A stretch of 64,000 nucleotides of DNA from Trypanosoma brucei (Eukaryota), in contig CM000208.1 in assembly GCA_000002445.1 (NCBI GenBank), positions 2,304,001-2,368,000 of the forward strand, in the 5' to 3' direction. The notes beneath the pieces are model-generated. The model was not told the origin of the DNA and did not search any database. It saw only the letters and a program-made list of their open reading frames with translations. Below are positions 1-16,375 of the stretch, one piece after another (position 1 is the first letter of the stretch; each line of letters opens with the position of its first letter). The position numbers and the translations under genes are program-made.

Positions 1-731
1 CTAGCACGCCTGAAAAGTTCAATGAAACAGAAATCATACAGGGAGCTATGACACCTCCAATGCTCTTCACGGCAGAGGTGTATTGCGCTATGCCACAGAT
101 TGATATAATGGTAAAGCATCCAAGGAATACACCGCCTGGGAAGTGCAGGAGGTTCTACGAGCGAGCATTTGAGGCGTCCACCCGAACAGGGACAAGGGCG
201 ATTCTGAGGGCAAATGAATCTGGAAGGTCGTATCTCAATGGCGGAGGAGTAATTGCAAGAGTATGGGCTCTGAGAGAGGCTCTGGAGGCATTCTTCCGCT
301 TAAAAAAGCAAAGTTTTTTTTGGGGCTGTGATCAAACTATGTGGGCATTTGTGTTTTTGTGGAGTGTAACTAGACCAAGTAACGTGAAACCGAAGTTGTT
401 TCTGAGAAGGGGAATTATGAGCCTTGACTACGAAACTCGGTATTTTCATTATCCTTATGGAAAGGTGATCAAAAGGGGTGCCATACTACATTTTGCGGGG
501 TCGAGTAACGTGTGGAAGGAGACAATACCCAGGTACCTCAGCGAGATGAGTTGGTTCAAAGCTCTAAAAAATTCTTTCACAGAACGAGAGGCTTACAGGC
601 GGCTGCTAGAAACAACTTCCGTTGAAATACACTCTGCAAGGGGTGCCTTTAGGTATGTAAAGCTCGGTACTGTGTGCCCCATCTCTAACGTTTCAAACCC
701 AAATTGGTTATCTGGGGAGTTGAGAAAGTAA
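1..731 (+). CDS. Copy A of a type-II membrane GT-A-fold (GT8-like) putative glycosyltransferase. It is 5'-truncated by the window edge; codon phase starts at position 3.
   Basis: In frame with listed ORF 48..731, with no stops from position 3. About 98% identical to the C-terminal two-thirds of copy B. Carries the LNGGGVIARVW motif and a C-terminal ILHFAGSSNVW motif (GT8-like HxxGxxKPW region). Confidence 0.75.
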   Translation, partial: STPEKFNETEIIQGAMTPPMLFTAEVYCAMPQIDIMVKHPRNTPPGKCRRFYERAFEASTRTGTRAILRANESGRSYLNGGGVIARVWALREALEAFFRLKKQSFFWGCDQTMWAFVFLWSVTRPSNVKPKLFLRRGIMSLDYETRYFHYPYGKVIKRGAILHFAGSSNVWKETIPRYLSEMSWFKALKNSFTEREAYRRLLETTSVEIHSARGAFRYVKLGTVCPISNVSNPNWLSGELRK

Positions 732-821
732 TGCATACGGTCAATCTGCATTGAAGATTACACCCGTAATCCGCGGCACATCGCATCGCACTCTCTTATC
801 CCTTACATACTCATTGCAGAA

Positions 822-846
822 ACTGACGTTTTATTTTTGTTTTCAG
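822..846 (+). promoter_or_regulatory. Polypyrimidine tract plus AG, a candidate spliced-leader trans-splice acceptor. Equivalent sites recur at 2113-2137 and 3421-3438.
   Basis: gacgttttatttttgttttcag lies immediately 5' of the first plausible in-frame ATG of each array copy. Kinetoplastid mRNA processing uses a polyY tract followed by AG for SL addition. Confidence 0.5.
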
Positions 847-849
847 GAA

Positions 850-2022
850 ATGTTGAGGAGGATCAAGGGTATTTCAACTCGTAAAAAGGGAGGGAGATTA
901 TATTTAATAGTGATTGCGCTGCTGATAGTGGTCGGGGTTATGGCGACAATGGATATAAGAAGTAGTCATACGGAAACCGGTCACGGGTTGAGAAAAGAAA
1001 ATTTCCACAGTAGTTATGCACCAAGGATTAGTTATGTTGTGGTGCAAAACAGACCCTCCCCAGGGTGGTGTAGAATGCTCTTAAGCTCTATACTCACCAA
1101 TGTGTCGGTGGTTACGTTGGGTATGGGAGGATGGTATGGTAACGTAAGAAGATGGACCTGGATATATAATTATGTATGGCGGGGAGAAGCGCGTGAGAGC
1201 GATGTGATTGTGATATTCGATGGGGGAGACACTTTTTTCACAGAAACACATTTAAGAGAAGATGCCATGAAGTATTTTCTGGCAACAACGCCTAGCACGC
1301 CTGAAAAGTTCAATGAAACAGAAATCATACAGGGAGCTATGACACCTCCAATGCTCTTCACGGCAGAGGTGTATTGCGCTATGCCAGATATTGATATAAT
1401 GGTAAAGCATCCAAGGAATACACCGCCTGGGAAGTGCAGGAGGTTCTACGAGCGAGCATTTGAGGCGTCCACCCGAACAGGGACAAGGGCGATTCTGAGG
1501 ATGAATGAATCCGGCAGGTCGTATCTCAATGGCGGAGGAGTAATTGCAAGAGTGTGGGCTCTGAGAGAGGCTCTGGAGGCATTCTTCCGCTTAAAAAAGC
1601 AGTGGTTTATATGGCGTTGTGATCAAACTATGTGGGCATTTGTGTTTTTGTGGAGTGTAACTAGACCAAGTAACGTGAAACCGAAGTTGTTTCTGAGAAG
1701 GGGAATTATGAGCCTTGACTACGAAACTCGGTATTTTCATTATCCTTATGGAAAGGTGATCAAAAGGGGTGCCATACTACATTTTGCGGGGTCGAGTAAC
1801 GTGTGGAAGGAGACAATACCCAGGTACCTCAGCGAGATGAGTTGGTTCAAAGCTCTAAAAAATTCTTTCACAGAACGAGAGGCTTACAGGCGGCTGCTAG
1901 AAACAACTTCCGTTGAAATACACTCTGCAAGGGGTGCCTTTAGGTATGTAAAGCTCGGTACTGTGTGCCCCATCTCTAACGTTTCAAACCCAAATTGGTT
2001 ATCTGGGGAGTTGAGAAAGTAA
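850..2022 (+). CDS. Copy B of the type-II membrane GT-A-fold putative glycosyltransferase (390 aa). The start is reassigned to the ATG at 850, just downstream of a polypyrimidine-AG tract.
   Basis: ORF 751..2022 in frame 1. The motif ttttatttttgttttcagGAAATG at 827-852 suggests 751-849 is intergenic. The N-terminus has a basic tail (RKKGGR) followed by a hydrophobic anchor LYLIVIALLIVVGVMA, giving Golgi type-II topology. Motifs present: DxD-like DVIVIFDGGDTFF, LNGGGVI, ILHFAG...W. Confidence 0.75.
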   Translation: MLRRIKGISTRKKGGRLYLIVIALLIVVGVMATMDIRSSHTETGHGLRKENFHSSYAPRISYVVVQNRPSPGWCRMLLSSILTNVSVVTLGMGGWYGNVRRWTWIYNYVWRGEARESDVIVIFDGGDTFFTETHLREDAMKYFLATTPSTPEKFNETEIIQGAMTPPMLFTAEVYCAMPDIDIMVKHPRNTPPGKCRRFYERAFEASTRTGTRAILRMNESGRSYLNGGGVIARVWALREALEAFFRLKKQWFIWRCDQTMWAFVFLWSVTRPSNVKPKLFLRRGIMSLDYETRYFHYPYGKVIKRGAILHFAGSSNVWKETIPRYLSEMSWFKALKNSFTEREAYRRLLETTSVEIHSARGAFRYVKLGTVCPISNVSNPNWLSGELRK

Positions 2023-2140
2023 TGCATACGGTCAATCTGCATTGAAGATTACACCCGTAATCCGCGGCACATCGCATCGCACTCTCTTATCCCTTACATA
2101 CTCATTGCAGAAACTGACGTTTTATTTTTGTTTTCAGGAA

Positions 2141-3319
2141 ATGGCGAAGGGAGGGAAAAGGGTAGTTGCTCGTAAAAAGGGAGGGAGATTATATTTAATA
2201 GTGATTGCGCTGCTGATAGTGGTCGGGGTTATGGCGACAATGGATATAAGAAGTAGCCATACGGAAACCGGTCACGGGTTGAGAAAAGAAAATTTCCACA
2301 GTAATTATGCACCAAGGGTTAGTTATGTTGTGGTGCAAACGAGACGCTCCCCAGGGTGGTGTAGAATGCTCTTAAGCTCTATACTCACCAACGTAAGCGT
2401 CACAACAGTTGGAATGGGCGCAGTGTACATTCATGCGTGGAGATGGACCTGGATATATAATTATATGCTACGGGAGAGGATGCATGAAGACGATGTGATT
2501 GTGATATTCGATGGGGGAGACACTTTTTTCACAGAAACACATTTAAGAGAAGATGCCATGAAGTATTTTCTGGCAACAACGCCTAGCACGCCTGAAAAGT
2601 TCAATGAAACAGAAATCTTACAGGGAGCTATGACACCTCCAATGCTCTTCACGGCAGAAAAAGGCTGCTACGCGCCGCAAATGTATATCATGACGGGTGT
2701 CGATCCCAGTAAAATACCTCAACGGGAAAGATGTTTAAATGTGTATGAAGAGGCATTTGAGGCGTCTACTCTGGCAGGGACGCAGGCTATTTTGCGGAAG
2801 CACGAATCTGGAAGGTGGCATCTCAATGGCGGAGGAGTAATTGCAAGAGTGTGGGCTCTGAGAGAGGCCCTAGATGTTTTCTTCGCGCTCAAAAGGCAGA
2901 GTTACAAATGGTGGTGTGATCAAAGTATGTGGTCATTGATTTTAGCGTGGAGTGTCAGCAGACCAAAGCACGTGAAACCGGTGTTGCTTCTGAGAAGGGG
3001 AATTATGAGCCTTGACTACGAAACTCGGTATTTTCATTATCCTCATACAACGCCGATTAGGACAGGAGTGATCCTACATTTTCCAATGCCGATCGTTTTG
3101 TGGAAAAACAAAATGGCAAAATACGTTGGTGAGACGACATGGTTTAGGGCTTTGCGAGATTCCGAAGGAAGACAGAAGACAGTGGCAGATTACTTAAAGA
3201 CCGTTTATGTGGATATTCGCTTCGTCTTTGGGTTCAAAAAGTGGAGGAAGTTTAGCAGCGTGTGCAGCATAAGCGATGTTGTGAACCCAAACTGGCTAAG
3301 TGGTGTGTTGAGAAAGTAA
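2141..3319 (+). CDS. Copy C of the type-II membrane GT-A-fold putative glycosyltransferase (392 aa). Its N-terminal half is near-identical to copy B, and its C-terminal half is a mosaic of conserved and diverged blocks.
   Basis: ORF 2042..3319. The ATG at 2141 follows ttttatttttgttttcag. It has the same TM anchor, the DVIVIFDGGDTFF motif, LNGGGVIARVWALREAL, the shared LRRGIMSLDYETRYFHYP block, and ILHFPMP. Confidence 0.75.
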   Translation: MAKGGKRVVARKKGGRLYLIVIALLIVVGVMATMDIRSSHTETGHGLRKENFHSNYAPRVSYVVVQTRRSPGWCRMLLSSILTNVSVTTVGMGAVYIHAWRWTWIYNYMLRERMHEDDVIVIFDGGDTFFTETHLREDAMKYFLATTPSTPEKFNETEILQGAMTPPMLFTAEKGCYAPQMYIMTGVDPSKIPQRERCLNVYEEAFEASTLAGTQAILRKHESGRWHLNGGGVIARVWALREALDVFFALKRQSYKWWCDQSMWSLILAWSVSRPKHVKPVLLLRRGIMSLDYETRYFHYPHTTPIRTGVILHFPMPIVLWKNKMAKYVGETTWFRALRDSEGRQKTVADYLKTVYVDIRFVFGFKKWRKFSSVCSISDVVNPNWLSGVLRK

Positions 3320-3443
3320 CACCAGCGCTTGACCTGTACCATAATATCATGCCCCCTATACGCTGCGTGTCGGCACGCCATTCACCAGGATGTATGAATA
3401 CACTGTGTGTGGAAATCCGTGTTTTATTTCATTTTTAGAAAAG

Positions 3444-4625
3444 ATGAAAGGAACTAAGAAATTTTATGGTAAAAGAAGGAAGAGAACGTGTGTAATAGGT
3501 GCGGCACTTCTGCTTATCTTTTTACTTTGTCGCATGCTGTTTATCCGGACGGAAGAAGTGGAAGACACCACGTTTGAGGAGGGTTGTTGGGAGCGTGAGA
3601 TGCGCAGCGAAGGAGTGGGAGATGTAAAGGTGCGTTACGTCGTGATACAGACGAAGCCCTCCCCAGGTTGGTGTAGAATGCTTGTAAGCTCTCTCGTTGT
3701 TGGTATTGATGTAATTACAATAGGACTCGATGGCGTGTACCATCACACCTCGAGGCCACATTGGTTGCTGAACTACATAGAAAGTGCGGGGTTAAGTGAT
3801 GACGATGTGATTGTGACATTTGATGGTGCGGACACAGTATTTGTGAACAAGCATAACCTCCAGTGCGCTATTAGCAAGTTCATATCAACGACACCGAGCA
3901 AACCAGAAAATTTCGATGAGGAAAAAATACTGAAAGGCGTCCAAAAGTCTCCACTCCTGTTTACTGCTGAAAGGGGGTGTTTTGCCTCTCAACTAAGCGT
4001 TTTGTTTTCAATAAGAGGCAGAAAACACGAAAAGAGGTGTGAGCGGTTCTATAGGGGGGAGATTTCAAAGGCCAAAGCAACCGGCGCGGAACGGGTGATG
4101 CGGATGCCAAAGAGTGGGCGGGCGTATCTTAATGCTGGTGGGGTGATCGGGAGGGTGTGGGCATTTAAGGAAGCAATAGGAGGATTTTCAAAACTTAGAG
4201 AAAAGAGTGACAGATGGTGGTGTGATCAGACAATTTGGACCATTCTCTTTGCCTGGAGCGTCAATCAACAGGACACTGGGGGTAAAGCAGTGCACTTGAG
4301 AAAGGGTCTGATTTCTCTAGACTACGATGCGAGGTATTTTCTCATTCCTTCGTACACTTCCCCAATTCGAAGCATGATATTGCATTTTTCCGGGCTTATT
4401 AGAGACTGGAAGTGGTGGTTTCCAGGTGTTGTGAGGAGGTTGGTATGGATACAGAGAATGAGAGATGATGTGTATCAGAGAGACAGTAGGAGTTTGCTAA
4501 CTAAGACCAGCTTAACGATCTACGGCGCTAAAGGAGAAAAATATATTCGTAAGTTTGCCGATGTTTGCAACGTTGATGAGGCCGTGGACTACACGTGGCT
4601 GTCGACGGTCCGAAGTAAGCATTAG
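3444..4625 (+). CDS. Copy D, a divergent paralogue (~35-40% identity to copy B) of the same type-II membrane GT-like family (393 aa).
   Basis: ORF 3390..4625. The ATG at 3444 follows gttttatttcatttttag. It has a basic tail and TM anchor (RTCVIGAALLLIFLLC). Conserved motifs: KPSPGWCRML, DVIVTFDGADTVF, YLNAGGVIGRVWAFKEA, WWCDQTIW, ISLDYDARYF, ILHFSG. Confidence 0.7.
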   Translation: MKGTKKFYGKRRKRTCVIGAALLLIFLLCRMLFIRTEEVEDTTFEEGCWEREMRSEGVGDVKVRYVVIQTKPSPGWCRMLVSSLVVGIDVITIGLDGVYHHTSRPHWLLNYIESAGLSDDDVIVTFDGADTVFVNKHNLQCAISKFISTTPSKPENFDEEKILKGVQKSPLLFTAERGCFASQLSVLFSIRGRKHEKRCERFYRGEISKAKATGAERVMRMPKSGRAYLNAGGVIGRVWAFKEAIGGFSKLREKSDRWWCDQTIWTILFAWSVNQQDTGGKAVHLRKGLISLDYDARYFLIPSYTSPIRSMILHFSGLIRDWKWWFPGVVRRLVWIQRMRDDVYQRDSRSLLTKTSLTIYGAKGEKYIRKFADVCNVDEAVDYTWLSTVRSKH

Positions 4626-7625
4626 ATACTACAGGTCAGCGTGAGACCGGCTGTTTCTACGGATGTGTGTACACAGGATTTTATACGTTGTGGGTTGCCG
4701 TCCACTCCGCGGCAAATCACCTTAGGTGCCACTGTTGACATCAAAAGGTTTTTCGAAGACAGTCTTTAAAAATTTATGTAAATTCGCTCCCTGCAATCGC
4801 GAGTTGGCGTTGTTTTGTAAACACGTGGATCCGCGTAAACGAAAAAAAAACAGCGATCCCAGTGTCGTTGGGATCTTCTACTGATGCCTGCAACGATGTG
4901 GCCACCGAAAAATAAAGGTAACCGTTTTTTTTTTTTAGCACCGTACTCGTTCGCTATTTACGGATGAAAATGAGGGGGAGTAGTGGGTATGTAGATTTCG
5001 AATGCCGTATCGTGGTGTTATTGGTGACTTTCTGTAAAACAAGCAGTTCAAAGGGGGAGTGTGATTATTATCGTCAAACTTTTAGATGAGAGCTTGCATT
5101 CAAGGCGCGTGTTGTGGCAGAAAACACGGGCTGCTCCCTGAGGTAGTGCAAGCCGTGTGCTCGTATAACGCCATCCGGTGCAGTGGTGGTTGGTGTGGTG
5201 GTGTTCCGCGACACCGACATGTCGGGAGGTGTCTGTGAGATTGAGGGGTTTATGTGGGAATATGATATCGTAGCAATGTTTTATGGCGCAGACACGTCTT
5301 TAGCGCAGGCCGAGTTTGTGGAGGAAGAGACACACCTTTGCGAATAGCTCACCAAAAATTAAAATGACAAACACATGGCGAGAGTCATTTTGCTTGGAAC
5401 AATGTTCCCCTCAATAATTTTCCGATCGAGAGGGGATGTTACCTCCTACGGATGTATGTCATGCTAGTGGTGTAGAACAAAAGTTCACAGTGGTACGAAA
5501 GTGTGTGAATATACGAGACTGGATGAGTGGGAAGGAGCTTATGGAGGGCTCGTCACGGTTGGGCTGCAGAATGCATGCCCAAACGGCATCGGTAAAAGTG
5601 GAAGAGTTTAAACGCTCAGAGAACCCTTTAAATCACTTTGTCAACGCCAGGATGGAGAACTTCAACTGATGGTGCGGCTACTATATAAGCGCTGGCGTTT
5701 CCGTACAATGTGACAGAGTACGTATTCGGGGAGGCGTTTACTCCCTCTCTACGGGGACCCATGTCCCTTAACTACAACTTCCAATGGTTTGGCAACGCCA
5801 CACTCAAAACAAACCTCACTTCCACTATTGCCCATTCGGGGTGAGATAATTGGGAGGGTGAGCTTGCCGATGACTGGGAGACTGTCATTGTGGTACCGAC
5901 AACTTGAACCACCGGAGAGGTGACAGTGAACGAAGGAGCATTCACTTTCGGAGCCTTTAGTGGCACAACGTAAGGAGAGAAAGTGCCTTCGAACAACCTC
6001 GGTGACGTGCGTCGAATCAATAGGACGGTGAAATATAAATGGCTAATGAGACCATTTAAGTGAAGTTAGCTGACGCCAGCACCATGTGTTTGCATTTATT
6101 TCACCGTGGCGTGCCTCGTATTTCTCCGCAATGAAGTTGGGTAGACATCTTCACCATTGTTGAGGACGTGGTATGCATCTATTGAATAGTGGATCTTGTC
6201 CCTAAAAACTGCCGAAACGTGGACGAAGAGCTCTCATAAAAAGGATTTCGATTTTACGCTGCTGTGCGTGAGTCAGGATAAAGAGGTGGCGTGATTTTAA
6301 TTGGTTCCATTGGAAATGCCTGTGATTTAGAGGAGTTCTTAGTGAAATCTCGAGCGCGCACAATAGTGATAAAACGAAAAAGAGGGATGTGAGGGGGAGG
6401 GCGTGCCGGTCATATAAAGGATATTCCAAACTATGAGCTTCATGGGAAAGACGCTTGTTTTGTGCGCGCTATTTTTCCGAACAAGTAGCAGGGGTACAAT
6501 CTCGCTTCAGGTTGCGCTGCAGCAGATTGATGTCCATGATATAACTACCTCTCCCGTGGATAAGAGCCGTTCCATTACTCGAAAATTAGGTAGGGTAGAG
6601 AGCGCGGGGTGGCGACCAGAAGTTTTGATTCGGAAGAAATTATTGTAGATTATGTTTGTCGCCGTGTGTTTTCCTCTTACCTTATCAGTTTTCAACTACA
6701 GTGATGGCATTCCATCGGGAGTGGTCCGACTAATCTTGGAACCACCCTCGGGAGCGAGTCGCTCTGTGGGCAATTTGGGAGAAGACAGGACTTGTGATAC
6801 CGAGATGTTAAAATAAATTTAAAGTAGTTGTATAACGTCTAAGAATTCAAAGGTGTATACAGTTGAATGTTTAATCCTGGGCGTGCTCATGAAGTAAATT
6901 GGTTACTTGGGGGTTATGGAAGCGAAATTAGTATGTTTTTTGTGGGCTTGTTGTATTCATGATCATCTAGAGAAAAGCATTGACGTACGAAAAGCTGATT
7001 ACAGTGGATTGAGGGAACGGAAGGCCAGTTGCCCATTTGAGAGGGAACGCCAGCGGGAGTCTTCCAAGAGACGGTTAGCTCTCACTATATGCCAGTTTGT
7101 TGCCGATTGTCTGTGAAATTTATAATTCAAGTGGAAGACATCACTCTTCTCAGATCATATCTGAGTTTAAAAGAATTGGGATACCCCTGTTGCTCAAATA
7201 TTCCACCATAAAAAACGAAAGATCTTCACTTGGTAGCGTCGGATTAACTGTGCGTCCGGTTTCTCATATTCAGAACATCAATTGGAACTCCCACTCTATA
7301 GTGTGCCACGTCAGTGTTCTTCAATTTCCAAAGAGAGGGAGATTTTGTGACGGCAGCTTCATACCGCAGCGGGGGTCTTGGTGTGTATGCAGAGATTGCT
7401 TACTTGATGTGCACCACTCAGTTGCAACATCCTTGGCGTAGTTAACGGACAAAATTTAAAAATTTTATTGCTTTGAAAAAAAAATGAATTTGTGTTAAAT
7501 GATATCTTAACATTTAAATGCTTTTCTTAGCAAATGATTGCAAATAACTTTGCGTTAAATGGAATGATCTTGTTTTTCATGCTGTCTTGTGAAGGGACGT
7601 TAAATTTGCAACAGCTAGGATAATA

Positions 7626-8228
7626 ATGAGAACGAATAGTCTCAACATCGGAGCAGTTTTGGGGGTGATGTTGGTAGTGGTTGACATTGAAGCACAGGGA
7701 ACAGGTGCCGTGTCCGCGTCGCATTGCACTTTCAACCAGCGCTCCGGTGTTTCTAAGAAGGAAGAGCTAGGGGACGCTATGAAGGTAGATAATGTCTTTC
7801 CAGGAGGCCCTAAAAAAGACGTTTTGGTGTCGTGTGCCAATAAGAGTCGTCAGACAGCGGCAGGGATTTTCGTTCACTGGTGCTGCAGGTGTGAATCAGA
7901 AACCAGTGGCGACAGGGGCAATGTTTGCGAATTTTTTGGAGATTGTGAATGTGATGATATCTATTCAACCTCAAACGTCCCTAAATGCGTTAAAGGAGAC
8001 CACATGTGGAGGGACTCTTCTACTGCGCTGCGGGCGGTTCTTCAGGATGTCAAGGGGAGAGACGCTTGTAACATCTCAACACCTAATGGAAAAGAGATAT
8101 TGATGAAGCTTACGAGAGAAGAGCTCACATCTAATATAGCACCTCAGGATTCGTCCTCCAAAATATTCTTGTTTCTGCTGGCTGCGCTGCTCATGCAGGA
8201 CGAATCTGTGGCACAAACCTCCAATTAG
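7626..8228 (+). CDS. Possible small (200 aa) cysteine-rich type-I membrane or secreted protein.
   Basis: The N-terminus has a signal-peptide-like hydrophobic stretch (IGAVLGVMLVVV). There are 10 Cys, some in clusters (HWCCRCESE, CEFFGDCECDD). There are N-glycosylation sites NKS and NIS. A C-terminal hydrophobic stretch IFLFLLAALLM is followed by a 10-aa polar tail. It is on the same strand as the cluster, with a polyY...AG (gcttttcttag) upstream. No homology is recognised. Confidence 0.35.
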   Translation: MRTNSLNIGAVLGVMLVVVDIEAQGTGAVSASHCTFNQRSGVSKKEELGDAMKVDNVFPGGPKKDVLVSCANKSRQTAAGIFVHWCCRCESETSGDRGNVCEFFGDCECDDIYSTSNVPKCVKGDHMWRDSSTALRAVLQDVKGRDACNISTPNGKEILMKLTREELTSNIAPQDSSSKIFLFLLAALLMQDESVAQTSN

Positions 8229-11200
8229 CGAGAATGATAACTCGTCCGTCACACATTTTAGTGGAAAATAGGGGGTATTAAACAAAAAGGGCCCTCACAA
8301 ACACGTGCATCCAAAATATAAATAAATACATATACATGCATATTTCCTCTTCTCCTCATGGCGTCTCCTAGAGGTTGCTGGCTTCTCTTAGGCACATCCT
8401 CTGTCCACGTATTACTCACACTTGCACGTATGATTTACTATGGCCCAAGCTGCTTTGATATTTGACGTTTCCAATGAGCACACACTTTTGATACTTTCCC
8501 AACTTTTTGTACATATTTCTGTTGCATTTTATGTTCAAAGAGCACCGTGCGGTGGTTGGGGGGAAAAACGTAGCACAGTGATAGGATGCCAATAAGAGAG
8601 GTTTGAAGGAACTACGGGAATACGATGGGCTACTTTGCTGAAGCAAGGAAAACCTCAATTAGTCCTGCGTGGCACTGAAAGAACACCATCTGGTGGCAGA
8701 GATGAATATGGCTAGCAAAAAAAAAAAAAAGACTTTCTCTTTGCAAAAACTCCCTGAGAGCTTTCCACAAACAGGGTGGCGTGTCTGAGGAAGCTTTTTC
8801 ACGGACTTTCCCTCAAAGGGTCTCACGCCAAGAAAACAGATTATGGCAGAGTGACAAATTTCACGGTTGCTTATAGATTCCTACCCCTTTTGGGCGGAGG
8901 AACATCACCCTCATGAATCTCACTCAAAAGAAGGGAGTGGTGACGGCGGTCGGCCTGTCAGCAAAATGCCGGTGTCCATTCCTCTGGGTGTATGTGCCGC
9001 GTGGCCCGCGTTGTGCAAGGTTTCGTTCATCTGAAGTTAAGCTTTTGTGGACGGTGGCTTTCCATTCAAGGTTTGCCAATGCGGCTGCAGCGTGGGGTTT
9101 GTATAAATGTGCTTAACATTCACTGGTATAGATTTGCTGCATGTTCATGGGATCGCTGATGCGCCGCGCGTGAAAAAAAAAATTATTCCATTTTCGTCAT
9201 TTGGACACCATTCTTCCGCCTTGCAGTCTACACTCCTCTGTGACCGAATGACAACGGTTAGTACAGGTGCAGCTCTGAGTAGGCTGACCACCGGGGCGTG
9301 CGGTAAGTCAATTCCCTTTGTGACTTACCCACAAAGATAAAGGGCGCGAACTATCGCTAATTTGGCACCGCAGTGGCAACGGTGCGCAGACAGGTCAATA
9401 TGCCGCAGTTTTGACTTACTTCACCCGTGTTATCGTCTGTTTCATTCTTCCTTTCGGCGATCCGGGCCGGTGTTTGGCTCGTTACTTCATCGTGCACGGA
9501 GAAACTACCCTTCTTTCGCAGTAAAAACACGCAAACTGTGAGCCATCAAATGTTCTTCGTCAGTGCGGTGCGTAGTGTTAACTGTGCTGGGTCGAAAGGC
9601 TTTTAAAACTGCAGTACCCATGCATCATTTGTTCCAGGGTGACGCAGCACTTGCTTTCGCTTCTGGATCCAACTGTGTGTGACCTCACACGGCCGGAGTT
9701 GTGACCACCATGACTGCAGCAGTCCAGTGCTTCCATACTATTGCCGTGACGTGGTCACAGTGGGATTTGTTAATGTTTTGAGCAAACCGCAAGAGTCATC
9801 GCGACTGTTGTCTCGCCATAGCTTAGGGGCTTGGCGTAGGGGTTCGCGCATAAGAAGGAGCACTAACCCGAGTTCCGCACCCCATTCCGGTGGACACAGC
9901 GCTCCATACCGAGGGGTGCTGTGTATGTGGTGTGCCTGTCTTATCGCATATCTTCAGGTGGCACGTGCCTCGCCCGCTCACCCCCAGCAGGGGCAAAGCG
10001 GCACCTCACGTCGCTCGCATACAATAGGGTGCGGGATGTGATTTTGAACAGACACTCCCTCATTCGGAGGGAAGTACCTTATTTTTGAAAGTACCCTGTC
10101 AATTCGAAACCCCTAACCCATGAGGGTGATCTCTCCCTGTGATACTGTGCTAGTGAACACGCTCTTACAGTTGGGTGTGCTTTTTTACATGCTGGGTCCT
10201 CGGCAATTTTCGATTTGTGCGTACCCTGCTTCATTTTTCTATGCTCGGGCTGGTTTTCCGCGGGGGCAACAGTGTGAAGAACCATATGGTCGACGGGGGT
10301 GCCAGCCTCTGCGCCCCAGACTTCATCCTTGTCCCAATCGTAGTGACCAGGCACTGACAGAGTGGAGATATGGGCAGTGCAGCGCTCTTCAACAAAACGG
10401 TGGGGCCCTTCGCCATAGTGGCATGTGCCGAAAAAAAAAAACAGTCCCGAGACACGTCCTGCACATGTCGCAGTGCAGCTTCACACCTTAGACAATTTAA
10501 AAGGAAGAGCACTTTGTCGGGTTTCTGCCCCAGCTTAAAATACAAAGTTATTCCAATTTAGGGCGGTAAATTATAACAAGAGGACGGCGACGAAAAGAGG
10601 AAGGGGTAAAGAACCGATTTTTTGTCTCGGCTTCGCGCCAACCGTCCGCGATTGCGCTTCGTTCCTAGCGCGGAAGTATGGAGAGCCTTGGAAGGAACCG
10701 TTCCAGCCTTGCTCAGGTTACAGCCGTTGCTCCACCGTGTCTCCAATACCTGCTTCTTCTTTTTTCCCCAAAGCTTTTTCGATATGGGGCATGTGGCCAA
10801 GTAGCCCGACGACCATTGGAATACCAACTCCAACTGGCTGCGGATTTCCTTCCCTTCCCGGTCGCACACCCAGTGGTGGGTTCCCGGTTGCACCAGCTTT
10901 CCTCGCTTACTGCTTAAAGCTCGGCTATTGCTGGTAGCGTTTCGCCGATATGGCCCAACTCCTTGTTATCGCATCCAGGGATGCCAGTGAGAACGGCGAC
11001 CCCAGCTTAATGCTGTGAGGTGTATCCCAACATCGTCTCCGTCACTCGCAATTTGACACAGCTCCTCCGTATCACGGGCTTTAATTTCGGAATGCTCGTA
11101 AGTGTTGCCTTTCTTTCCTCATCTTCACCCCGTTTTTTTCACTCCTTCCATTGGACCCTGCGAATCTCTTATCGGTTTCCGTCCTGATACATGGGCAGCC

Positions 11201-14200
11201 GTTCCCACCGCATATTTACGGCACGCCTTGGGCCCGTTAATGCCATCCCTGTGGTTAAGAAGATATCTAAATACATTTTCGGAAGCAGGGGGTTTGTTTT
11301 CCATCGGAACATCGCTGTGCCTGCGATGCGGCAAGCTTCCTTCAGATCTCCACGCGCCTTCATCGCCTTATTCTTCTCGGAGCGCTACCCATTTAAGTGG
11401 AGCAGTGTCTGTTTTCATTTGTGTGCTGCCATCGTTCTTTTCCAATGGCTTTCTTCTTGATTTTCCATGTGTACTTTGAGTCGCTCCTATATGTGTCCCA
11501 TCAAGGCCCTACTGAGCAAATATGCCGCTGTGCTCGGAACGTTTTCGGTCTGAATTGTTATTTGCCTTCCCCCGTCTGGTCTCTCCTTTTCCCATCTGTC
11601 TGGGCAAGTGATGGCATGTAAAGCTTTGCGATGGCCCGCGATGGTGTGAGGAAATATTTTACACTTGCCCACTTCTTTTATGCTGCTCCAAAAAAACAGA
11701 CCAAATCTTAGTTTATGACTACCCGCTCTCCTCCAATCAAATGGTCTACTGTGATCGACACTTTGTTGCCTCGTTCACAGTTATCCTCCGCTCCTGGTGT
11801 CACCGAGCCTCGCTTTCGTCGGCACTTTTACTCCCCTGTAGCAGGTAAACTATGGGTTTGGCGTGGCAAGTACTGTTGCTGCTTTGCCACCGAAACTTCT
11901 GTCTACCTTCACCACTTGTTCGACCAACTTTGGTCTTATTCCGATGATTTCTGTCGTAGGCGTTCCTTTGCTGCGTGGGCAGTCGTTGGTGTTTATGCGT
12001 TTCAACACGATATGACGCTTAGGCCGCGCAAGCGTTCGCTAACTCTTGTCCGGAAGTGACCCCCGAAATGCACGTTCACTATTATTTGTCCCCACCTCCC
12101 TCACCTTCGCCTCTGCTACTCCTTCCTCAGCGGTTTTTTTTCATTCGGACAACATCAGTTTGAACCAGGTGGTTGGTGGTTTTCTACCACTTAAATCACA
12201 CTTATTTTACTAACTTCCTGGGACGCTGCAGCTACTTCTGCGACAAACCTCCTCCAAAGTTGGTGTTCCTGATGCCGACCCCCTCCCCCTGCACGTGACA
12301 TTAAGAGTTCATCGGTCGCTAGACTCCGTCGCCGCCGCCGTTTCCCTCTTATCCGGAGGCCCTGTTGCCACGCATAACCTCAGCTTGGCTTACAGTTTGT
12401 TGGCTTTCGTGCATCATGGGAACTTCCAGGCACACTCCCCGACTATTCTTTCCCACGGTCTTTGTCTCTTCCTCGCCTTTCCTGGTATGGGAATCCCTTT
12501 ATATTTATCCACGTTTTTCTTTGAGCTCCACGCATTTTTTTAGAAGTGCCGCTGATGCTTAGGAGTCCGGGCGGAAGTCATGGTTATGAGAGGCTTTAAA
12601 GCATTTTTTCAGTTTTTCTTACTCTTCAGAAGTCACACACATATGTTTTACCACCGTGTTGTTTGTCGCTTTGCCCGGTTGTGACTGTAAAAAGGCATAC
12701 CCCGGGCATGCTATTAGTCTACGGGTTCTTTCTTACGCAACTTCACGGGGTGGGAACTCTCCTGCTGAACCGCTTGGGGATGTATCTAAGCTTTGTTTCT
12801 CCCATTACTCCTTTGATTCTGCTGGTTACAGCTGGAGCTGCACCCACAGCCGCATTTGTTGGAGGTTGTCCTCCTGTGAATCCATCTGGATCGCCAGAAG
12901 GTGAACCTTGAAGCGCCCTGGGACACTTTCCTCCACACAGGTGGGTTTTGTGTCCTTTGGGGAGGCAACGTGTCGGCGCCCATGGAAAGTGGAAGGTTTG
13001 CTTCCCCAGTATTCACACGTTTCTCACGGAAGAGCAAAGAAGTTGGTGCGCACCCACAGGCCATCGTCGCAAGGAACAAACCCTTCTCAGTTTGAGACGG
13101 CGCCCGCATTGCATTCCACATTGATGGGAAATGAAACCTTTTCCCCGTTGGCCCTACAGAAATATGGTGAAAGGGAGGAAAAGGCAGATAGCGCCAACTC
13201 ACGTTGCCCTTTAATGGCGCACGCTCTGAGAGTTCACTTTCCCTTTAATACCCCAATGTCGGTGCGCGCCCTTACTCTACTCGGCGCGCCCCAAACTTCA
13301 GCGTCGACTCGCCACACTGAGAAGGTTTTGCATATTGGCCTCCAACTTGGACGGTTTTGGGCCCTGAACCGTGGGAGGAGGTTGTGTGCTTTCCCCCTCA
13401 TACTCTTTGAGCTGCCCAACGACCCCTTCATAATCGCAAGGCGCCATTCCGCGGCTGAGGGACCCTCTTTTGTCTCACGCGAGCTGTGGTCACTTTAAAG
13501 GACGTGGTGTCATTAAGGTAAGTTACGAACAATGCATGTCTCGCTGCCCTCGCGTTTAACGGCACGAACAATTCTTGCTCCCGCGTAGCAACGGTGTACA
13601 GGTTTCGTCACTGTGGGTTTTTCGTCTCAAGTCACTCCGTTCTCCCCCGTGCGGCTGATAGTTCATTGGTGGAAAAACTGTCTCGCGGCCAGGGGACTGC
13701 GCTGAAACGATTTCTAAGGATACCCATGGAAATTATCAAACATAGAGGACACTTTTCATGGCCCGCCGCAACGTGCCTGGAAAATGGTGAAAAAATGACG
13801 TTCCACAGATGCCTGTGACACCAGCGCTGTGCGGTTTCGTAAACGCACCACAAAAGTGACCCCCGTATGAGAATTTCTGCCCAGCCCCAGCTCCACCCGA
13901 ACTTAGGGTTTACTTAAGTCTGGCATTACGTCAACACAGCTGGTGGTGGCGCGGAGAAATAGCAGGCCGGGTGCCCCCCAGCAGCACTTCCCTAGCGAGT
14001 TGCTGTTGATGAAAAAAATGCCTTCTTCCCCTCCCACCCCGGTGTGCTTGTGACTCGCGCGCCTCTGTATGGCAGTCCCTCCCACTTTCCCCTTAAACCA
14101 AATGGTTCCAACCAGCCAATCATCGAATTCCCCTCGAGCCCTCCTCTTCTATCTCGGCATCTTCAGCAAACTTGAGCCCGGCGCCTCGGAGTCAAGCAAA

Positions 14201-15872
14201 TTTCTACGGTGTTGGACCGGCCTGTAAAATACAGACGCCAGTTTCTCAACCGCAGAGCTCCACTGAAAACACGAGCTCCTTTAGCGAGGCAGACCCCAAC
14301 TATTCCGCTGCGATCCATGTGAAATTGGACTGGGGCTTCCCCGGCATCCTTGCTCAACGACAGCGGCTACGAGGGACAAGCAAAGAAGCAAACTTCCAAG
14401 GAAACGAAAAAGGCAAAAGAGCATTTGCTGTCGCAGGGTGGATTGATAACGTTACCGTGGCCCCTTGCCCCAGAAGACGGTGCTAGCAAGCCCTCCCAAA
14501 TTTCGTCAAAGTGGGATACACGCAAGAGATGGGAATCCCCTGCTTCAGAAAATAGCCACGCCCTGCCGCTGCGGCAACGTAGTTGGCATTGCCAATAATA
14601 TTCTTGCTTTTACCGACCCTCTGGAAAACGCGAGGCCACAACCACTCCTTGACGGACTTATCAACTACTACTGATTTTTTTTTTCGTCTCCTTCGCCTCT
14701 TCGTCATCCTGCAGCCACTTGTGACAGCAGGATTTCGTTTCACCTGACAGCTCCACAGTTTCGCATATAGTGATATTTGGCCCTCAAATCAGAAGAACTG
14801 ACACCTCGGCGTTGTCTAATCGGCCAAAAATCTCGCTTTCCACAACTCTTTCTGGTTCCCCTTTTTTTCAGTAGGCAGAGGAAAACAACCATCTCCAAAC
14901 TGAAAACTGTGTGCAGCCGCGCCCCAGCGGAAGCAACATGCTTGCGCAGCAAGGTTATGTCGGACGAGTGACCCACCTCCCTTTCGATAGGCCCTATTTG
15001 GTGCCATTCACCTTTGGCTGGGGTTCTCACCACTCGACACACCCTGTCCTTCGGTCCGAAATTTTCCTTTTCAGGAATTTGTGGCTTCCACCCTCCCTCC
15101 CGTACATCCTTTTGCCACGAGTGGGGCTTGGTATCCTCCTCGTTGTTTTTTCAGTGTTTTGGATGGCGGCTGTGTCGCAGCACCGCCCTTTTCCAGTTGC
15201 ACGGCACTCCGCGGTGCTCGATCCCAGCATCTTTTCACGCGTAACCGTTGCACCTTCATTTTCCTGGAGGGGGTGCGCCCCCCAAGGAACGATCTGGCCT
15301 CCCGATGGTGCGTTATTCTGGCATCAAAGGTCAATGGCGAAGTCGGTGTCCGAACTTCCGCTGCTTACGAATTGCCTTACGAACGGAGAATGGTTGTCAC
15401 TCTTTCGCTTTCACGGTTGTCTGCTCCCTCCCGCTCTGCGCGTTGGTCGATTTATCCGGCTACCCTTCCTAAAGTGAAACGAGGGGGTTTTACAGGTAAG
15501 GAGCTCCCGCATTGGCCCTGTCGCTTGGTACGTCTCCCCAGTTCGTCGAGGGTTTCGTGTTCCACCGGCTGATCAGGTAACTGCCGACGCTAACTTCTAC
15601 TGATCATAGGTTTCTTCTCCTCTTCGTCTTGGCGGTGCGCTCGCCTCAACCGCACCGGTGACCCGGTGAGCCTCCTACGCATTTCCTTGCAGTGCGGGCC
15701 TCCTGGCTCCCCGCGGTCGCCATTTTTCTTACTTGTGTGTACGGTGGTTGGCTGCCCCATTGCTGCTCTTTGTGTGTTTTTTTCTTTTTCTTTTTTCTCG
15801 GCGGGAGGGGATGTAGTTTCTCTCTTTTCTTTTGCTGAGGACAGGTTGGGGCGGCATGAGAAGTTCCTGAGG

Positions 15873-15913
15873 TGTGTCTGTGTGTGTGTGTGTTGGGGGG
15901 GGGGGGGGGGGGG
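15873..15913. repeat. (GT)n microsatellite immediately followed by a 19-nt G homopolymer.
   Basis: The sequence gtgtgtctgtgtgtgtgtgtgtt followed by 19 G lies at 15873-15913. A poly-T tract lies 50 bp downstream. It is about 460 bp upstream of the oxidoreductase gene. Confidence 0.9.
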
Positions 15914-16375
15914 TACGGCCTAGCGGCTGTTTCTGCTACCGAGGTGTGTGACGAAGGCGCCACCCTCCTAGCTTGCCGTGTTGCAGTTTTTTTTTTTTAC
16001 AGCTAGTTGTGGCGGTTCGCCCTCGAGTACCGAGAGACGCAGGTGCATCCCGTGAATATTCGGGTCGTTTAAACTGTTAGCGATCGGTGTCGGGATACGT
16101 GTGCTCCAGTCGGGTTTCGCTCTTTGCGCTTTCGCCCTTTCAGGGCAGCGGGTGCTTTGAGCTCCTGGTAAATGCCACTTTGTCTTTGCTAACATTTTTT
16201 TCGGGTTATCCACTTTATGACGCTTAAGGTTAGTCGTGCTACAGATGATGCCCGTATATGTGTACAATCGCCAATGTTCGCGTCCATGTAGGCGTTGGTG
16301 TTCTTATCTTCCTTACCGTTTATTTACAAGGAGGAGAAAGCAAAGTCTTTTTTTTAAAGCTGACAGCCCACTGGC

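What the first reader, a model, noticed from the sequence alone, without database searches (positions are those of the whole stretch)
1..4625. Tandem array of type-II GT-A-like glycosyltransferase genes with a gene-conversion mosaic and one old divergent member
There are four head-to-tail copies. Copies A and B are about 98% identical. Copy C has an N-terminal half identical to B, up to LFTAE, and a C-terminal half made of alternating identical and diverged blocks. The identical blocks include LRRGIMSLDYETRYFHYP and LNGGGVIARVWALREAL. Copy D is only about 35-40% identical but keeps every motif. This mosaic is what segmental gene conversion within an array produces.

The catalytic-site motifs form a GT8/nucleotide-diphospho-sugar-transferase-like trio: a DxD region, LNGGGVI, and ILHFxG...W. 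The DxD region is unusual, reading FDGGD or FDGAD where GT8 has LDADT. The window starts inside copy A, so the array probably extends upstream and copy number is unknown.
Basis: partly seen in the sequence, partly recalled or inferred. Interest (0 to 1): 0.6.

Follow-up and report, generated by a model that had tools for sequence, protein, structure and literature searches.

The report
Trypanosome ESAG3-like glycosyltransferase gene array
This is the annotated cluster of ESAG3-related (GRESAG3) genes on Trypanosoma brucei chromosome 10, which encode membrane-anchored sugar-transferring enzymes resembling the collagen glucosyltransferase LH3; the neighbouring copies have been patch-wise overwritten by recombination, which is real but ordinary for this parasite.

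Summary
Window 1-4625 carries four head-to-tail genes: A (partial), B, C and D. A and B are 98% identical. B versus C is a sharp mosaic. D is 36-38% identical.

The window is T. brucei brucei TREU927 chromosome 10. The genes are annotated "ESAG3-like" (Fam53/GRESAG3).

The GT-A reading is correct, but the nearest relatives are the human LH3/PLOD3 glucosyltransferase domain and bloodstream ESAG3, not GT8. A 2026 preprint shows ESAG3 is a Mn-dependent UDP-glucose O-glucosyltransferase of VSG. The "unusual" FDGGD is the LH3/ESAG3 DxxD metal motif.

Recombination is strongly supported. Synonymous divergence between B and C is about 0 in some blocks and saturated in others. T. equiperdum's copy-C orthologue carries B-type patches.

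A and B are missing from the T. b. gambiense, T. equiperdum and T. evansi genomes. The breakpoint sits at the most conserved 56-nt block.

The array does not appear to continue upstream as intact genes. A fifth, decayed copy lies downstream at about 5162-6063.

A and B have lost the Trp equivalent to ESAG3 W242.

Verdict: an already annotated family, now well explained, with acceptors still unknown. Interest is modest.

The parts
1..731 (+). Copy A, 3' 62% of the CDS (residues about 148-390; frame 3-731, stop 729-731). The full gene is EAN78342/P0008, 390 aa, inferred to be Tb927.10.9470.
732..849 (+). 118-nt intergenic spacer A-B. It ends in a polypyrimidine tract and an AG 3 nt before the ATG (putative trans-splice acceptor, inferred).
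   Evidence: identical to 2023-2140
850..2022 (+). Copy B (390 aa, EAN78343), an ESAG3-like type-II GT-A protein. DxxD is D124/D127, the GG loop is G229/G230, D258/Q259 and H311 are present. Position 256 is Arg, where ESAG3 has W242.
1691..1746 (+). 56-nt block (LRRGIMSLDYETRYFHYP) that is 100% identical in A (400-455), B and C (2988-3043). It coincides with the breakpoint where the gambiense and equiperdum loci stop being collinear with copy B.
2023..2140 (+). 118-nt intergenic spacer B-C, identical to the A-B spacer.
2141..3319 (+). Copy C (392 aa, EAN78344, 'ESAG3-like protein'). It is a mosaic relative to B and has the full ESAG3-type catalytic set, including W256. Orthologues at 98-99% exist in T. 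b. gambiense and T. equiperdum.
3320..3443 (+). Intergenic spacer C-D, unrelated in sequence to the other two. It also ends in a polypyrimidine tract and an AG 2 nt before ATG 3444. The database model (411 aa) starts at 3390, upstream of that tract.
3444..4625 (+). Copy D (393 aa from ATG 3444; EAN78345 annotated as 411 aa). It is the old divergent member, 36-38% identical to A-C, with all catalytic residues kept. Its closest paralogue is on chromosome 9.
5162..6063 (+). Decayed fifth copy (pseudogene psi-E). Collinear fragments lie in three frames with stops: ..FYGADT.., ..PIERGCY.., RGPMSLNYN.., LWYRQLE.., KWLMRPFK*. It is most like the chromosome 2 paralogue P0007.
   Evidence: the two best hits in 59 kb x 6 frames; tblastn E 1.3e-7 and 1.5e-6

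Best explanation
The region is the chromosome-internal GRESAG3 (ESAG3-like, Fam53) array of Trypanosoma brucei brucei TREU927 chromosome 10.

What the genes encode. Each intact gene encodes a type-II membrane protein. Its lumenal domain is a retaining-type GT-A glycosyltransferase of the LH3/PLOD3-ESAG3 kind. A DxxD pair (D124/D127) and a C-terminal His (H311) would hold Mn2+ and the UDP-sugar. A Gly-Gly loop (G229/G230) and an acidic-polar pair (D258/Q259) complete the site. By analogy with bloodstream ESAG3, the enzymes would transfer a hexose, most likely from a UDP-hexose, onto secretory-pathway glycoproteins in the ER or Golgi. The acceptors are unknown. One published hypothesis is extension of the O-glucose that ESAG3 puts on VSG.

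How the array evolves. It changes by homologous recombination between members. Unequal crossing-over or deletion at the most conserved 56-nt block changes copy number: A and B are present in TREU927 and absent from three related genomes. Short-tract gene conversion homogenises some blocks of old paralogues. Other blocks stay anciently diverged, including the loops that carry the cavity-lining residues. D and the decayed psi-E are older lineages parked in the same array.

Shown here: identity, fold, conserved catalytic residues, the recombination mosaic and the copy-number difference. Inferred: donor sugar, activity, localisation and splice sites.
For: Identity.
- Exact matches to T. brucei TREU927 'ESAG / ESAG3-like' proteins EAN78342-78345 on a 4,054,025-bp contig.
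- All ORFs of 200 aa or more but one are on the + strand, as in a trypanosomatid polycistron.

Fold.
- AF2 pLDDT 81.7.
- Foldseek top 10 hits are all LH3/PLOD3, followed by mimivirus R699.
- The family profile matches LH3 in PDB at E 2.8e-12 across all motifs.
- A distant homologue on a polycistron-like contig passes Pfam GT_PLOD.

Catalytic residues. The equivalents of ESAG3 D110, D113, G215, G216, E244, Q245 and H297 are conserved in A-D at a constant offset of 14.

ESAG3 biochemistry (preprint 10.64898/2026.01.27.701950). It reports Mn dependence, UDP-Glc specificity, an alpha-O-Glc product, loss of activity in D110N and W242A, and the GRESAG3 relay hypothesis.

Topology. A basic tail plus a 19-residue hydrophobic segment with mean Kyte-Doolittle score 2.5-2.7.

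Recombination.
- Identical runs of up to 127 nt.
- Synonymous runs test: 45 observed against 80.6 +/- 4.9.
- Block-wise pS for B-C is 0.00-0.07 in residues 11-85, 119-173 and 280-298. It is 0.69-0.80 in residues 1-10, 86-118, 174-222 and 299-390. The same blocks against D are uniformly 0.65-0.98.
- The T. equiperdum C orthologue is identical to TREU927 B, not C, across 852-911, and closer to B across 1092-1151.

Copy number.
- gambiense and equiperdum have only a decayed N-terminal relic joined to a B-type 3' third. Collinearity with the window starts at 1704, inside the conserved block.
- T. evansi was reported to lack Tb927.10.9460 and Tb927.10.9470.

Phylogeny. A/B/C group with the chromosome 11, second chromosome 10 and chromosome 2 paralogues at 100% support. 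D groups with the chromosome 9 paralogue at 75%.
Against: - No enzymatic, localisation or expression data for these four genes were obtained here. Activity and donor sugar rest on homology at 28% identity to BES ESAG3.
- Copies A and B carry Gly and Arg where ESAG3 has W242, and W242A abolished ESAG3 activity. B also has Asn for H84, and A and B have Ala for Y163. A and B may therefore be inactive or have changed specificity.
- The ESAG3 ring-interface residues H54 and W345 are not conserved, so the quaternary structure may differ.
- No Pfam model reaches threshold on the copies themselves.
- Donors for the B-type diverged blocks were not found.
- TREU927 DNA upstream of the window could not be fetched.
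- The direction of the A/B event, gain or loss, is unresolved.
Confidence: 0.85

Rival explanations
1. The mosaic is not recombination. It reflects uneven purifying selection: catalytic blocks stay identical and surface blocks drift.
For: The identical or near-identical blocks contain the DxxD and LDY motifs. The diverged blocks contain the cavity-lining loops and the C-terminal subdomain.
Against: - Identity extends to synonymous sites. B-C pS is 0.00-0.07 in blocks where B-D and C-D pS is 0.65-0.87.
- The non-coding 118-nt spacer is also identical.
- Clustering of synonymous differences exceeds all 20,000 shuffles.
- B-type patches appear inside the C orthologue of T. equiperdum.
Confidence: 0.03
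2. Copies A and B are not two tandem genes. They are an assembly duplication or two alleles laid out in tandem in the TREU927 reference.
For: - A and B are 98% identical with identical spacers.
- Three related genomes lack intact A/B-type genes at this locus.
- No long reads were available here.
Against: - The 15 differences are not random errors. Eleven sit in five codons with 2-3 changed bases each (180, 218, 252, 254, 256), and five more amino-acid changes cluster at residues 88-98. Two distinct sequences therefore exist.
- Both are separate GenBank gene models.
- The T. evansi study reports these genes as lacking in T. evansi in a read-depth comparison against TREU927. This supports B-type sequence being specific to TREU927, but it does not separate one copy from two.
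- An allelic origin cannot be excluded with the tools here.
Confidence: 0.08
3. The B/C pattern is mainly one unequal crossover that made a hybrid gene (C-like 5' two-thirds plus B-type 3' third) at the conserved 56-nt block. Under this reading it is not many conversion tracts.
For: - The gambiense and equiperdum loci break collinearity with B exactly at 1704, within the block 1691-1746.
- The region 3' of that block is uniformly diverged between B and C, with 129 differences in 277 nt.
- The spacers on both sides of B are identical.
Against: - Within the 5' two-thirds there are still four strongly diverged patches: 852-911, 1092-1211, 1332-1505 and 1566-1685. Their pS is saturated.
- Two of these patches segregate independently between subspecies.
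- A single crossover is therefore not sufficient, and several short tracts are also needed. The two mechanisms are complementary.
Confidence: 0.25
4. A and B are catalytically dead or re-purposed pseudo-enzymes on their way to becoming pseudogenes. Only C and D would be working transferases.
For: - The W242 equivalent is Gly in A and Arg in B. In B the H84 equivalent is Asn. In A and B the Y163 equivalent is Ala.
- W242A abolished ESAG3 activity.
- A and B are dispensable in three related genomes.
- The array already contains decayed copies.
Against: - Both ORFs are intact, with all metal, UDP and acid-base residues kept.
- The neighbouring W255 (equivalent to W241) is invariant.
- Many distant family members have Trp at only one of the two positions.
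- The chromosome 11 paralogues share Leu or Gly at this site yet are intact.
Confidence: 0.2
5. The proteins are members of CAZy family GT8 (glycogenin or LPS glycosyltransferase type).
For: GT8 enzymes are also retaining GT-A enzymes. Glycogenin, XXYLT1 and LARGE1 appear among weak structural matches.
Against: - There is no Pfam Glyco_transf_8 hit, or any other Pfam hit at E of 1 or below.
- GT8 structures score E about 1e-2 and TM 0.28-0.35, against E 1e-8 for LH3.
- The metal motif is DxxD, not DxD.
- The family profile finds only LH3 in PDB.
Confidence: 0.03

Closest known systems
T. brucei ESAG3 sensu stricto (bloodstream expression-site copy; Zhong et al. 2026 preprint, doi 10.64898/2026.01.27.701950)
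   Same: - Same protein family, Fam53. The profile built from the window copies hits a 368-aa ESAG3-type protein (P0026) at E 6e-80.
- The paper's residue numbers map onto P0026.
- Same GT-A fold class and same catalytic set: DxxD, GG loop, acidic-Gln pair and C-terminal His, at a constant 14-residue offset.
   Different: - About 28% identity.
- Chromosome-internal Pol II polycistron, not a telomeric expression site.
- N-terminal type-II signal anchor instead of a signal-peptide-like N-terminus.
- Asp instead of Glu at the acidic position.
- Ring-interface residues H54 and W345 are not conserved.
- A and B lack the W242 equivalent.
- Activity, donor and acceptor are untested.
Human LH3/PLOD3 N-terminal glucosyltransferase domain (PDB 6FXR, 6WFV; Pfam PF25342 GT_PLOD)
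   Same: - Best structural match: E 3.5e-8, and TM 0.66 normalised to the 233-residue domain.
- Best sequence-profile match: E 2.8e-12.
- Shared DxxD, LNxGG, DQ and His motifs.
- Retaining UDP-Glc chemistry is known for LH3 and reported for ESAG3.
   Different: - 16-17% identity.
- The window proteins are single-domain type-II membrane proteins, with no accessory or lysyl-hydroxylase domains.
- They carry about 90 extra C-terminal residues.
- They do not reach the Pfam threshold.
- The acceptor is certainly not collagen Gal-Hyl.
Mimivirus R699 (PDB 9DYT, 9E92)
   Same: Second tier of structural matches (E 2e-5 to 3e-4, TM 0.40-0.43), GT-A of the PLOD-like kind.
   Different: 12-13% identity. 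It was not examined further.
GT8 retaining GT-A enzymes (glycogenin, XXYLT1, LARGE1)
   Same: General GT-A Rossmann-like fold and retaining mechanism. They give weak Foldseek matches.
   Different: They have DxD rather than DxxD. There is no Pfam hit, and the structural scores are six orders of magnitude weaker than for LH3.
Recombining tandem or dispersed multigene families of trypanosomes
   Same: Head-to-tail copies in one polycistron, identical spacers, conversion tracts and strain-variable copy number. The cell-surface phylome paper notes very frequent recombination among ES copies and among non-ES copies of ESAG-related families.
   Different: Here the exchanged tracts are short (about 50-130 nt). 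They leave specific loops unhomogenised, and the array mixes two anciently separated sublineages plus decayed copies.

Membership tests
Fam53 / ESAG3-GRESAG3 family of trypanosomatids | Significant full-length sequence homology to ESAG3 and ESAG3-like proteins | tested here: met
   There are exact and near matches to proteins named ESAG/ESAG3-like. The ESAG3-type P0026 scores E 6e-80 against the profile.
Fam53 / ESAG3-GRESAG3 family of trypanosomatids | Conserved catalytic residues identified in ESAG3 (D110, D113, G215, G216, E244/Q245, H297) | tested here: met
   All are conserved in A-D, with Asp for Glu at position 244. W242 is kept only in C and D.
ESAG3 sensu stricto (expression-site copies) | Located in a telomeric VSG expression site or subtelomere, and branching within the ESAG3 clade | tested here: not met
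   The array is flanked by housekeeping genes: oxidoreductase, PFR component and WD protein downstream, and NDH2 and an ISG65-like gene upstream in gambiense. In the NJ tree, ESAG3-type P0026 lies outside the clades that hold A-D. These are therefore GRESAG3 genes, as defined in PMC6152948.
ESAG3 sensu stricto (expression-site copies) | Octadecameric ring assembly through the H54/W345 interface | tested here: inconclusive
   The equivalent residues are Arg/Lys and Arg/Lys/Tyr, which argues against the same interface. The oligomeric state itself is not testable here.
ESAG3-type enzymology | Mn2+-dependent, UDP-glucose-specific alpha-O-glucosylation of Ser/Thr | not testable with these tools
   Known only from the preprint, for BES ESAG3.
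PLOD/LH3-type GT domain (Pfam PF25342 GT_PLOD) | Score above the Pfam gathering threshold | tested here: not met
   no hit for B, C or D at E of 1 or below. ESAG3-type P0026 scores 16.5 bits against a cut-off of 27. Distant homologue P0045 scores 28.4 bits, and P0041 has a precomputed GT_PLOD hit.
PLOD/LH3-type GT domain (Pfam PF25342 GT_PLOD) | GT-A fold with DxxD metal motif, Gly-rich loop, Asp-Gln pair and C-terminal His, superposable on LH3 | tested here: met
CAZy GT8 (Pfam Glyco_transf_8) | Pfam or sequence match and a DxD motif | tested here: not met
   There is no Pfam hit. The motif is D-G-G/A-D. GT8 structures match only at E about 1e-2.
Type-II (signal-anchor) Golgi/ER glycosyltransferase topology | Short basic cytoplasmic tail, single N-terminal hydrophobic span and lumenal catalytic domain | tested here: met
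   tails are rich in Arg/Lys and the 19-mers have mean KD 2.5-2.7. N-glycosylation sequons occur in the lumenal part of B and C. This rests on sequence only; localisation is not tested.

The most novel reading that the evidence does not exclude
Copies A and B may be a strain-specific pair of neofunctionalised transferases. They are present in TREU927 and absent from the T. b. gambiense, T. equiperdum and T. evansi genomes.

Nearly all of their mutual differences are multi-base codon replacements. These sit next to the residues that line the ESAG3 substrate cavity:
- residues 88-98, around the Y82 and H84 equivalents;
- residue 180, near the Y163 equivalent;
- residues 252-256, including the W242 equivalent, which is Gly in A and Arg in B.

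Under this reading, recombination homogenises the catalytic core while selection keeps or imports variant cavity loops. Different T. brucei strains would then have different glycan-extension capacities on surface glycoproteins. An example would be extending the ESAG3-installed O-glucose on VSG, which would add a strain-variable layer to epitope diversity.
Probability: 0.15. Interest if true: 0.6.

Novelty: already known. Interest (0 to 1): 0.3.

Why it matters
ESAG3 has just been reported as the enzyme that O-glucosylates VSG and reshapes antibody epitopes. The same preprint names the roughly 50 GRESAG3 paralogues as candidates for extending that glycan and calls for their biochemical testing.

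This array offers a compact natural panel for that test:
- two canonical but anciently diverged enzymes (C and D);
- two near-identical strain-specific copies (A and B) that differ almost only in cavity-lining loops;
- orthologous loci in sister subspecies that lack A and B.

It also illustrates how short-tract conversion and unequal crossover at one ultra-conserved block shape a core-chromosome gene family. The genes, the family and the A/B presence-absence polymorphism are already in the literature and annotation. The value is therefore confirmatory and organisational, not a discovery.

Tried and rejected
- Single-sequence search of PDB: only a chance hit at E 0.7.
- First AlphaFold2 run with 8 close paralogues: unusable, pLDDT 38.7. 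Adding T. grayi, T. conorhini, chromosome 9 and one distant homologue, and trimming the anchor, fixed it.
- Word-indexed homologue search with a 46-sequence alignment and with copy D: only 8 and 6 hits.
- Exact-protein look-ups for TREU927 proteins A/B, C and P0004: not on record. The DNA upstream of the window in TREU927 itself, and the chromosome 11 paralogues, could therefore not be read.
- The T. equiperdum contig carrying the oxidoreductase starts too close to it to reach the array.
- Plain tblastn with B, C and D did not significantly detect the fifth copy. A family HMM and the chromosome 2 paralogue did.
- Donors for the B-type diverged blocks: block-wise comparison with the chromosome 11, second chromosome 10 and chromosome 2 paralogues found none close enough.
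- Rfam (gathering threshold), tRNA scan, TRF (period limit 500) and Pfam on ten ORFs between 7 and 16 kb all returned nothing.
- I considered treating the loss of the W242 equivalent in A and B as proof of inactivity. I rejected this because many distant family members keep only one of the two Trp residues.

Full report
**What is in the sequence**

Window 1-4625 holds four collinear + strand ORFs:
- copy A, 3-731, cut by the window edge;
- copy B, 850-2022;
- copy C, 2141-3319;
- copy D, 3444-4625.

Direct-repeat analysis puts the copies in register at spacings of 1291, 1297 and 1306 nt. A and B differ at 15 of 849 shared nucleotides. The 118-nt spacers A-B and B-C are identical. D is 36-38% identical to the others at protein level.

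Three corrections apply:
- The N-terminal half of C is not uniformly identical to B. Residues 1-10 and 86-118 are strongly diverged.
- A is a complete annotated 390-aa gene and appears to be the first intact copy.
- A fifth, decayed copy lies just downstream, at about 5162-6063.

**Source and identity**

The proteins match Trypanosoma brucei brucei TREU927 entries EAN78342 to EAN78345 exactly. [quoted passage not shown] Downstream ORFs match the TREU927 oxidoreductase, a paraflagellar rod component and a WD protein. All but one of the 18 ORFs of 200 aa or more in the window are on the + strand, as expected for a trypanosomatid polycistron.

The literature places such core-chromosome copies in Fam53 as 'GRESAG3'. 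This is the ancestral lineage from which expression-site ESAG3 expanded (PMC6152948; PMC3605285).

A supplementary table of the T. evansi genome paper lists Tb927.10.9470 as a putative ESAG3 protein. It gives 1173 nt at Tb927_10_v5:2342115-2343287(+), preceded 2.5 kb upstream only by a 195-nt 'hypothetical, unlikely' model. The same length as A and B, and the orthologue table (9490 and 9500 have T. evansi orthologues; 9460-9480 do not), suggest a mapping. I infer A = 9470, B = 9480, C = 9490 and D = 9500. This mapping is inference.

**Protein family and fold**

Pfam gives no hit for B, C or D at E of 1 or below. A single-sequence PDB search gives nothing.

An exhaustive profile search found 80 cluster representatives, 62 of them at E of 1e-10 or below. 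A profile of 46 of them hits the glucosyltransferase domain of human LH3/PLOD3 in PDB at E 2.8e-12. The alignment pairs the family's flDGsDtlF with LH3 FVDSYDV, LNaGG with LNSGG, CDQS with DDQ and ilHfnG with VVHGNG.

A first AlphaFold2 run on a shallow alignment failed, with pLDDT 38.7. A second run on the lumenal domain of C with 14 more diverse sequences gave pLDDT 81.7 and pTM 0.85. Foldseek against PDB gave these tiers:
- LH3/PLOD3 in the first ten places, with best E 3.5e-8, probability 1.0 and TM 0.66 on the isolated domain 6wfv;
- mimivirus R699 next;
- generic GT-A enzymes, including GT8 members glycogenin, XXYLT1 and LARGE1, only at E about 1e-2.

A 2026 preprint (doi 10.64898/2026.01.27.701950) reports the following for expression-site ESAG3:
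- It is a Mn2+-dependent, UDP-glucose-specific, retaining O-glucosyltransferase of VSG3 with a GT-A fold closest to LH3.
- Its key residues are D110/D113 (DxxD), G215/G216, W242, E244/Q245 and H297.
- D110N and W242A abolish activity.

A 368-aa ESAG3-type protein from the search (P0026) carries exactly those residues at those numbers. They map onto the window copies at a constant offset of 14, giving D124, D127, G229, G230, D258, Q259 and H311. All are conserved in A-D.

The GT-A call is right and the GT8 affinity is not. The N-termini are a basic tail followed by one hydrophobic 19-mer with mean KD 2.5-2.7. This supports a type-II anchor, unlike the signal-peptide-like N-terminus of P0026.

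**Differences from ESAG3 that may matter**

- The W242 equivalent (position 256) is Trp in C and D, but Gly in A and Arg in B.
- The H84 equivalent is Asn in B.
- The Y163 equivalent is Ala in A and B.
- The ring-interface residues H54 and W345 are replaced in all copies.

Across 46 family members, Trp is usual at position 256 in the closer relatives. Many distant members keep only the neighbouring Trp (W255 here), which is invariant in A-D. I therefore treat loss of the W242 equivalent as a flag for altered or lost activity in A and B, not as proof.

The A-B differences are peculiar. In the window, 11 of the 15 changed bases fall in five codons with 2-3 changes each (codons 180, 218, 252, 254, 256), and only 4 are isolated synonymous changes. 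The five further amino-acid differences upstream cluster at residues 88-98. Nearly all differences therefore lie within a few residues of the cavity-lining positions named in the preprint.

**The mosaic is recombination, not constraint**

B and C differ at 303 of 1297 aligned positions. Exact runs of 127, 121, 88, 56 and 49 nt alternate with stretches of 26-38 differences per 60 nt.

Among codons with the same amino acid, synonymous differences are clustered into 45 runs. Shuffles give 80.6 +/- 4.9, and none of 20,000 shuffles was as low.

Block-wise Nei-Gojobori proportions are bimodal:

| Residue blocks | B-C pS |
|---|---|
| 11-85, 119-173, 280-298 | 0.00-0.07 |
| 223-279 | about 0.25 |
| 1-10, 86-118, 174-222, 299-390 | 0.69-0.80 |

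The same blocks compared with D are uniformly 0.65-0.98. B and C are therefore old paralogues that have been homogenised in patches, with an identical non-coding spacer as well.

A cross-subspecies comparison makes this concrete. The T. equiperdum orthologue of C is identical to TREU927 B, and 17 differences from TREU927 C, over 852-911. It is closer to B over 1092-1151, with 9 differences against 21. The gambiense orthologue follows TREU927 C over 1092-1151, with no differences. Over 852-911 it matches neither copy, with 9 differences from C and 26 from B. Conversion tracts of roughly 60-120 nt are thus polymorphic within the T. brucei group.

**Copy number and extent of the array**

The syntenic loci of T. 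b. gambiense DAL972 (L003, L005) and T. equiperdum (L004) run in this order:
- NDH2 (seen in the gambiense locus L003 only);
- an ISG65-family gene;
- a frame-shifted, about 31%-identical relic of the N-terminal part of a family member;
- a 3' third that is 96-97% identical to copy B;
- the 118-nt spacer;
- the C orthologue;
- the D orthologue.

Nucleotide collinearity with the window begins at 1704. That lies inside the 56-nt block 1691-1746, which is 100% identical in A, B and C. The T. evansi paper independently reports lack of Tb927.10.9460 and Tb927.10.9470 in strain STIB805.

Intact A and B are therefore a TREU927 feature among the genomes examined, and the rearrangement junction is the family's most conserved block. 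That is the expected signature of unequal crossover or deletion between array members. I could not polarise the event.

No further copy more than 90% identical to A/B exists in the protein collection. The annotation shows no ESAG3-like gene immediately upstream. Extension of the array upstream as intact genes is therefore unlikely, although a relic like the gambiense one may be there.

**The fifth copy**

A family HMM run over all six frames of the remaining 59 kb gave its two best hits at 5252-5431 and 5752-5856. Both are on the + strand, collinear, at the right spacing and in different frames. Every other hit in the window scored far lower.

Translation shows a chain of recognisable fragments interrupted by stops and frameshifts: MWEYDIVAMFYGADT, PIERGCY, RGPMSLNYN, STIAHSG*DNWE, LWYRQLE and KWLMRPFK*. 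tblastn with the chromosome 2 paralogue P0007 gives E 1.3e-7 and 1.5e-6. This is a decayed P0007-type member.

**Phylogeny**

In a neighbour-joining tree, A/B/C form a 100%-supported clade with the chromosome 11, second chromosome 10 and chromosome 2 paralogues. D groups with a chromosome 9 paralogue at 75%. The array thus mixes at least two, and with psi-E three, old sublineages. This confirms 'one old divergent member'.

**Mechanism proposed**

Shown:
- membership of the ESAG3/GRESAG3 family;
- a GT-A fold of LH3 type;
- a complete metal, UDP and acid-base residue set;
- a type-II anchor sequence;
- the recombination mosaic;
- the copy-number polymorphism with its junction at the conserved block.

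Inferred:
- The genes are trans-spliced at AG dinucleotides 2-3 nt upstream of the ATGs, after polypyrimidine tracts.
- The proteins sit in the ER or Golgi and use Mn2+ and a UDP-hexose with retention of configuration.
- The unhomogenised loops tune acceptor or donor choice.

The preprint's own hypothesis is that GRESAG3 enzymes extend the O-glucose that ESAG3 places on VSG. It remains untested.

**Novelty and score**

The genes are annotated. The family is described. The enzymology of its founding member is reported. The absence of A and B from T. evansi was published in 2015. What this analysis adds:
- a verified fold for a GRESAG3;
- a residue-level comparison with ESAG3;
- quantitative proof and cross-subspecies evidence of conversion;
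- the breakpoint at the conserved block;
- the decayed fifth copy.

That is useful but not surprising to a specialist, so interest is 0.3 and novelty is 'already known'.

Noticed in passing
window 5162-6063 (+): Decayed fifth ESAG3-like copy (psi-E) just downstream of copy D. It has stops and frameshifts, and is most similar to the chromosome 2 paralogue P0007 (tblastn E 1.3e-7). It lies outside the coordinates of the finding.
   Followed up: yes
window 732-849, 2023-2140, 3320-3443: Very short intergenic spacers of 118-124 nt. Each ends in a polypyrimidine tract and an AG only 2-3 nt before the ATG. This implies near-zero 5' UTRs and 3' UTRs under 100 nt, which is unusually compact for T. brucei. 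The database model of copy D (411 aa, start 3390) begins upstream of that tract and is probably 18 codons too long.
   Followed up: partly
window 7626-8228 (+): 200-aa ORF with a hydrophobic N-terminus, many Cys residues and a hydrophobic C-terminal tail (signal peptide plus GPI or TM-like). It is called as a 200-aa gene at the syntenic position in the T. b. gambiense and T. equiperdum loci (L003 15495-16097, L004 14244-14846). It has no Pfam hit. An ISG65-family gene lies upstream of the array in those genomes.
   Followed up: partly
window about 8300-16300: About 8 kb without any ORF of 200 aa or more. It has only short overlapping ORFs on both strands. G+C is 50-54%, and GC and AT skew are negative, meaning the + strand is pyrimidine-rich. 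Rfam, tRNA, tandem-repeat and Pfam searches all returned nothing. It is 98.9% conserved with T. b. gambiense as far as that locus reaches (window 13316). Its nature is unknown; it could be a long UTR or non-coding stretch, or a degenerate element.
   Followed up: partly
L004 8754-9927 (T. equiperdum orthologue of copy C): tblastn splits the orthologue between two frames around residues 93-110, and no gene is called there. It is either a pseudogene in T. equiperdum or an indel error of that assembly. Its N-terminal 93 residues are 91% identical to TREU927 B but only 82% identical to TREU927 C.
   Followed up: partly
L003 8805-9879 / L004 7720-8632: In gambiense and equiperdum, a chimeric remnant sits upstream of copy C. 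Its N-terminal part is frame-shifted and about 31% identical. It is fused, at the conserved LRRGIMSLDY block, to a 3' third that is 96-97% identical to TREU927 copy B.
   Followed up: yes
proteins P0036-P0097; L006 10001-11239: Dozens of distant homologues of 400-720 aa come from unnamed Logan, ENA and JGI assemblies, and 62 representatives score E of 1e-10 or below. One of them, P0041, lies on a 27-kb contig with all genes intronless on one strand (kinetoplastid-like) and passes Pfam GT_PLOD. Another, P0080 (1239 aa), is fused to a PF11397 GlcNAc-transferase domain. The source organisms were not identified.
   Followed up: partly
L001 (T. equiperdum chr10, 1.12-1.15 Mb): A second GRESAG3 locus on chromosome 10 carries P0005, the paralogue whose segment types most resemble copy C. 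It is preceded by two short uncharacterised ORFs (163 and 242 aa) that might be further family fragments.
   Followed up: no
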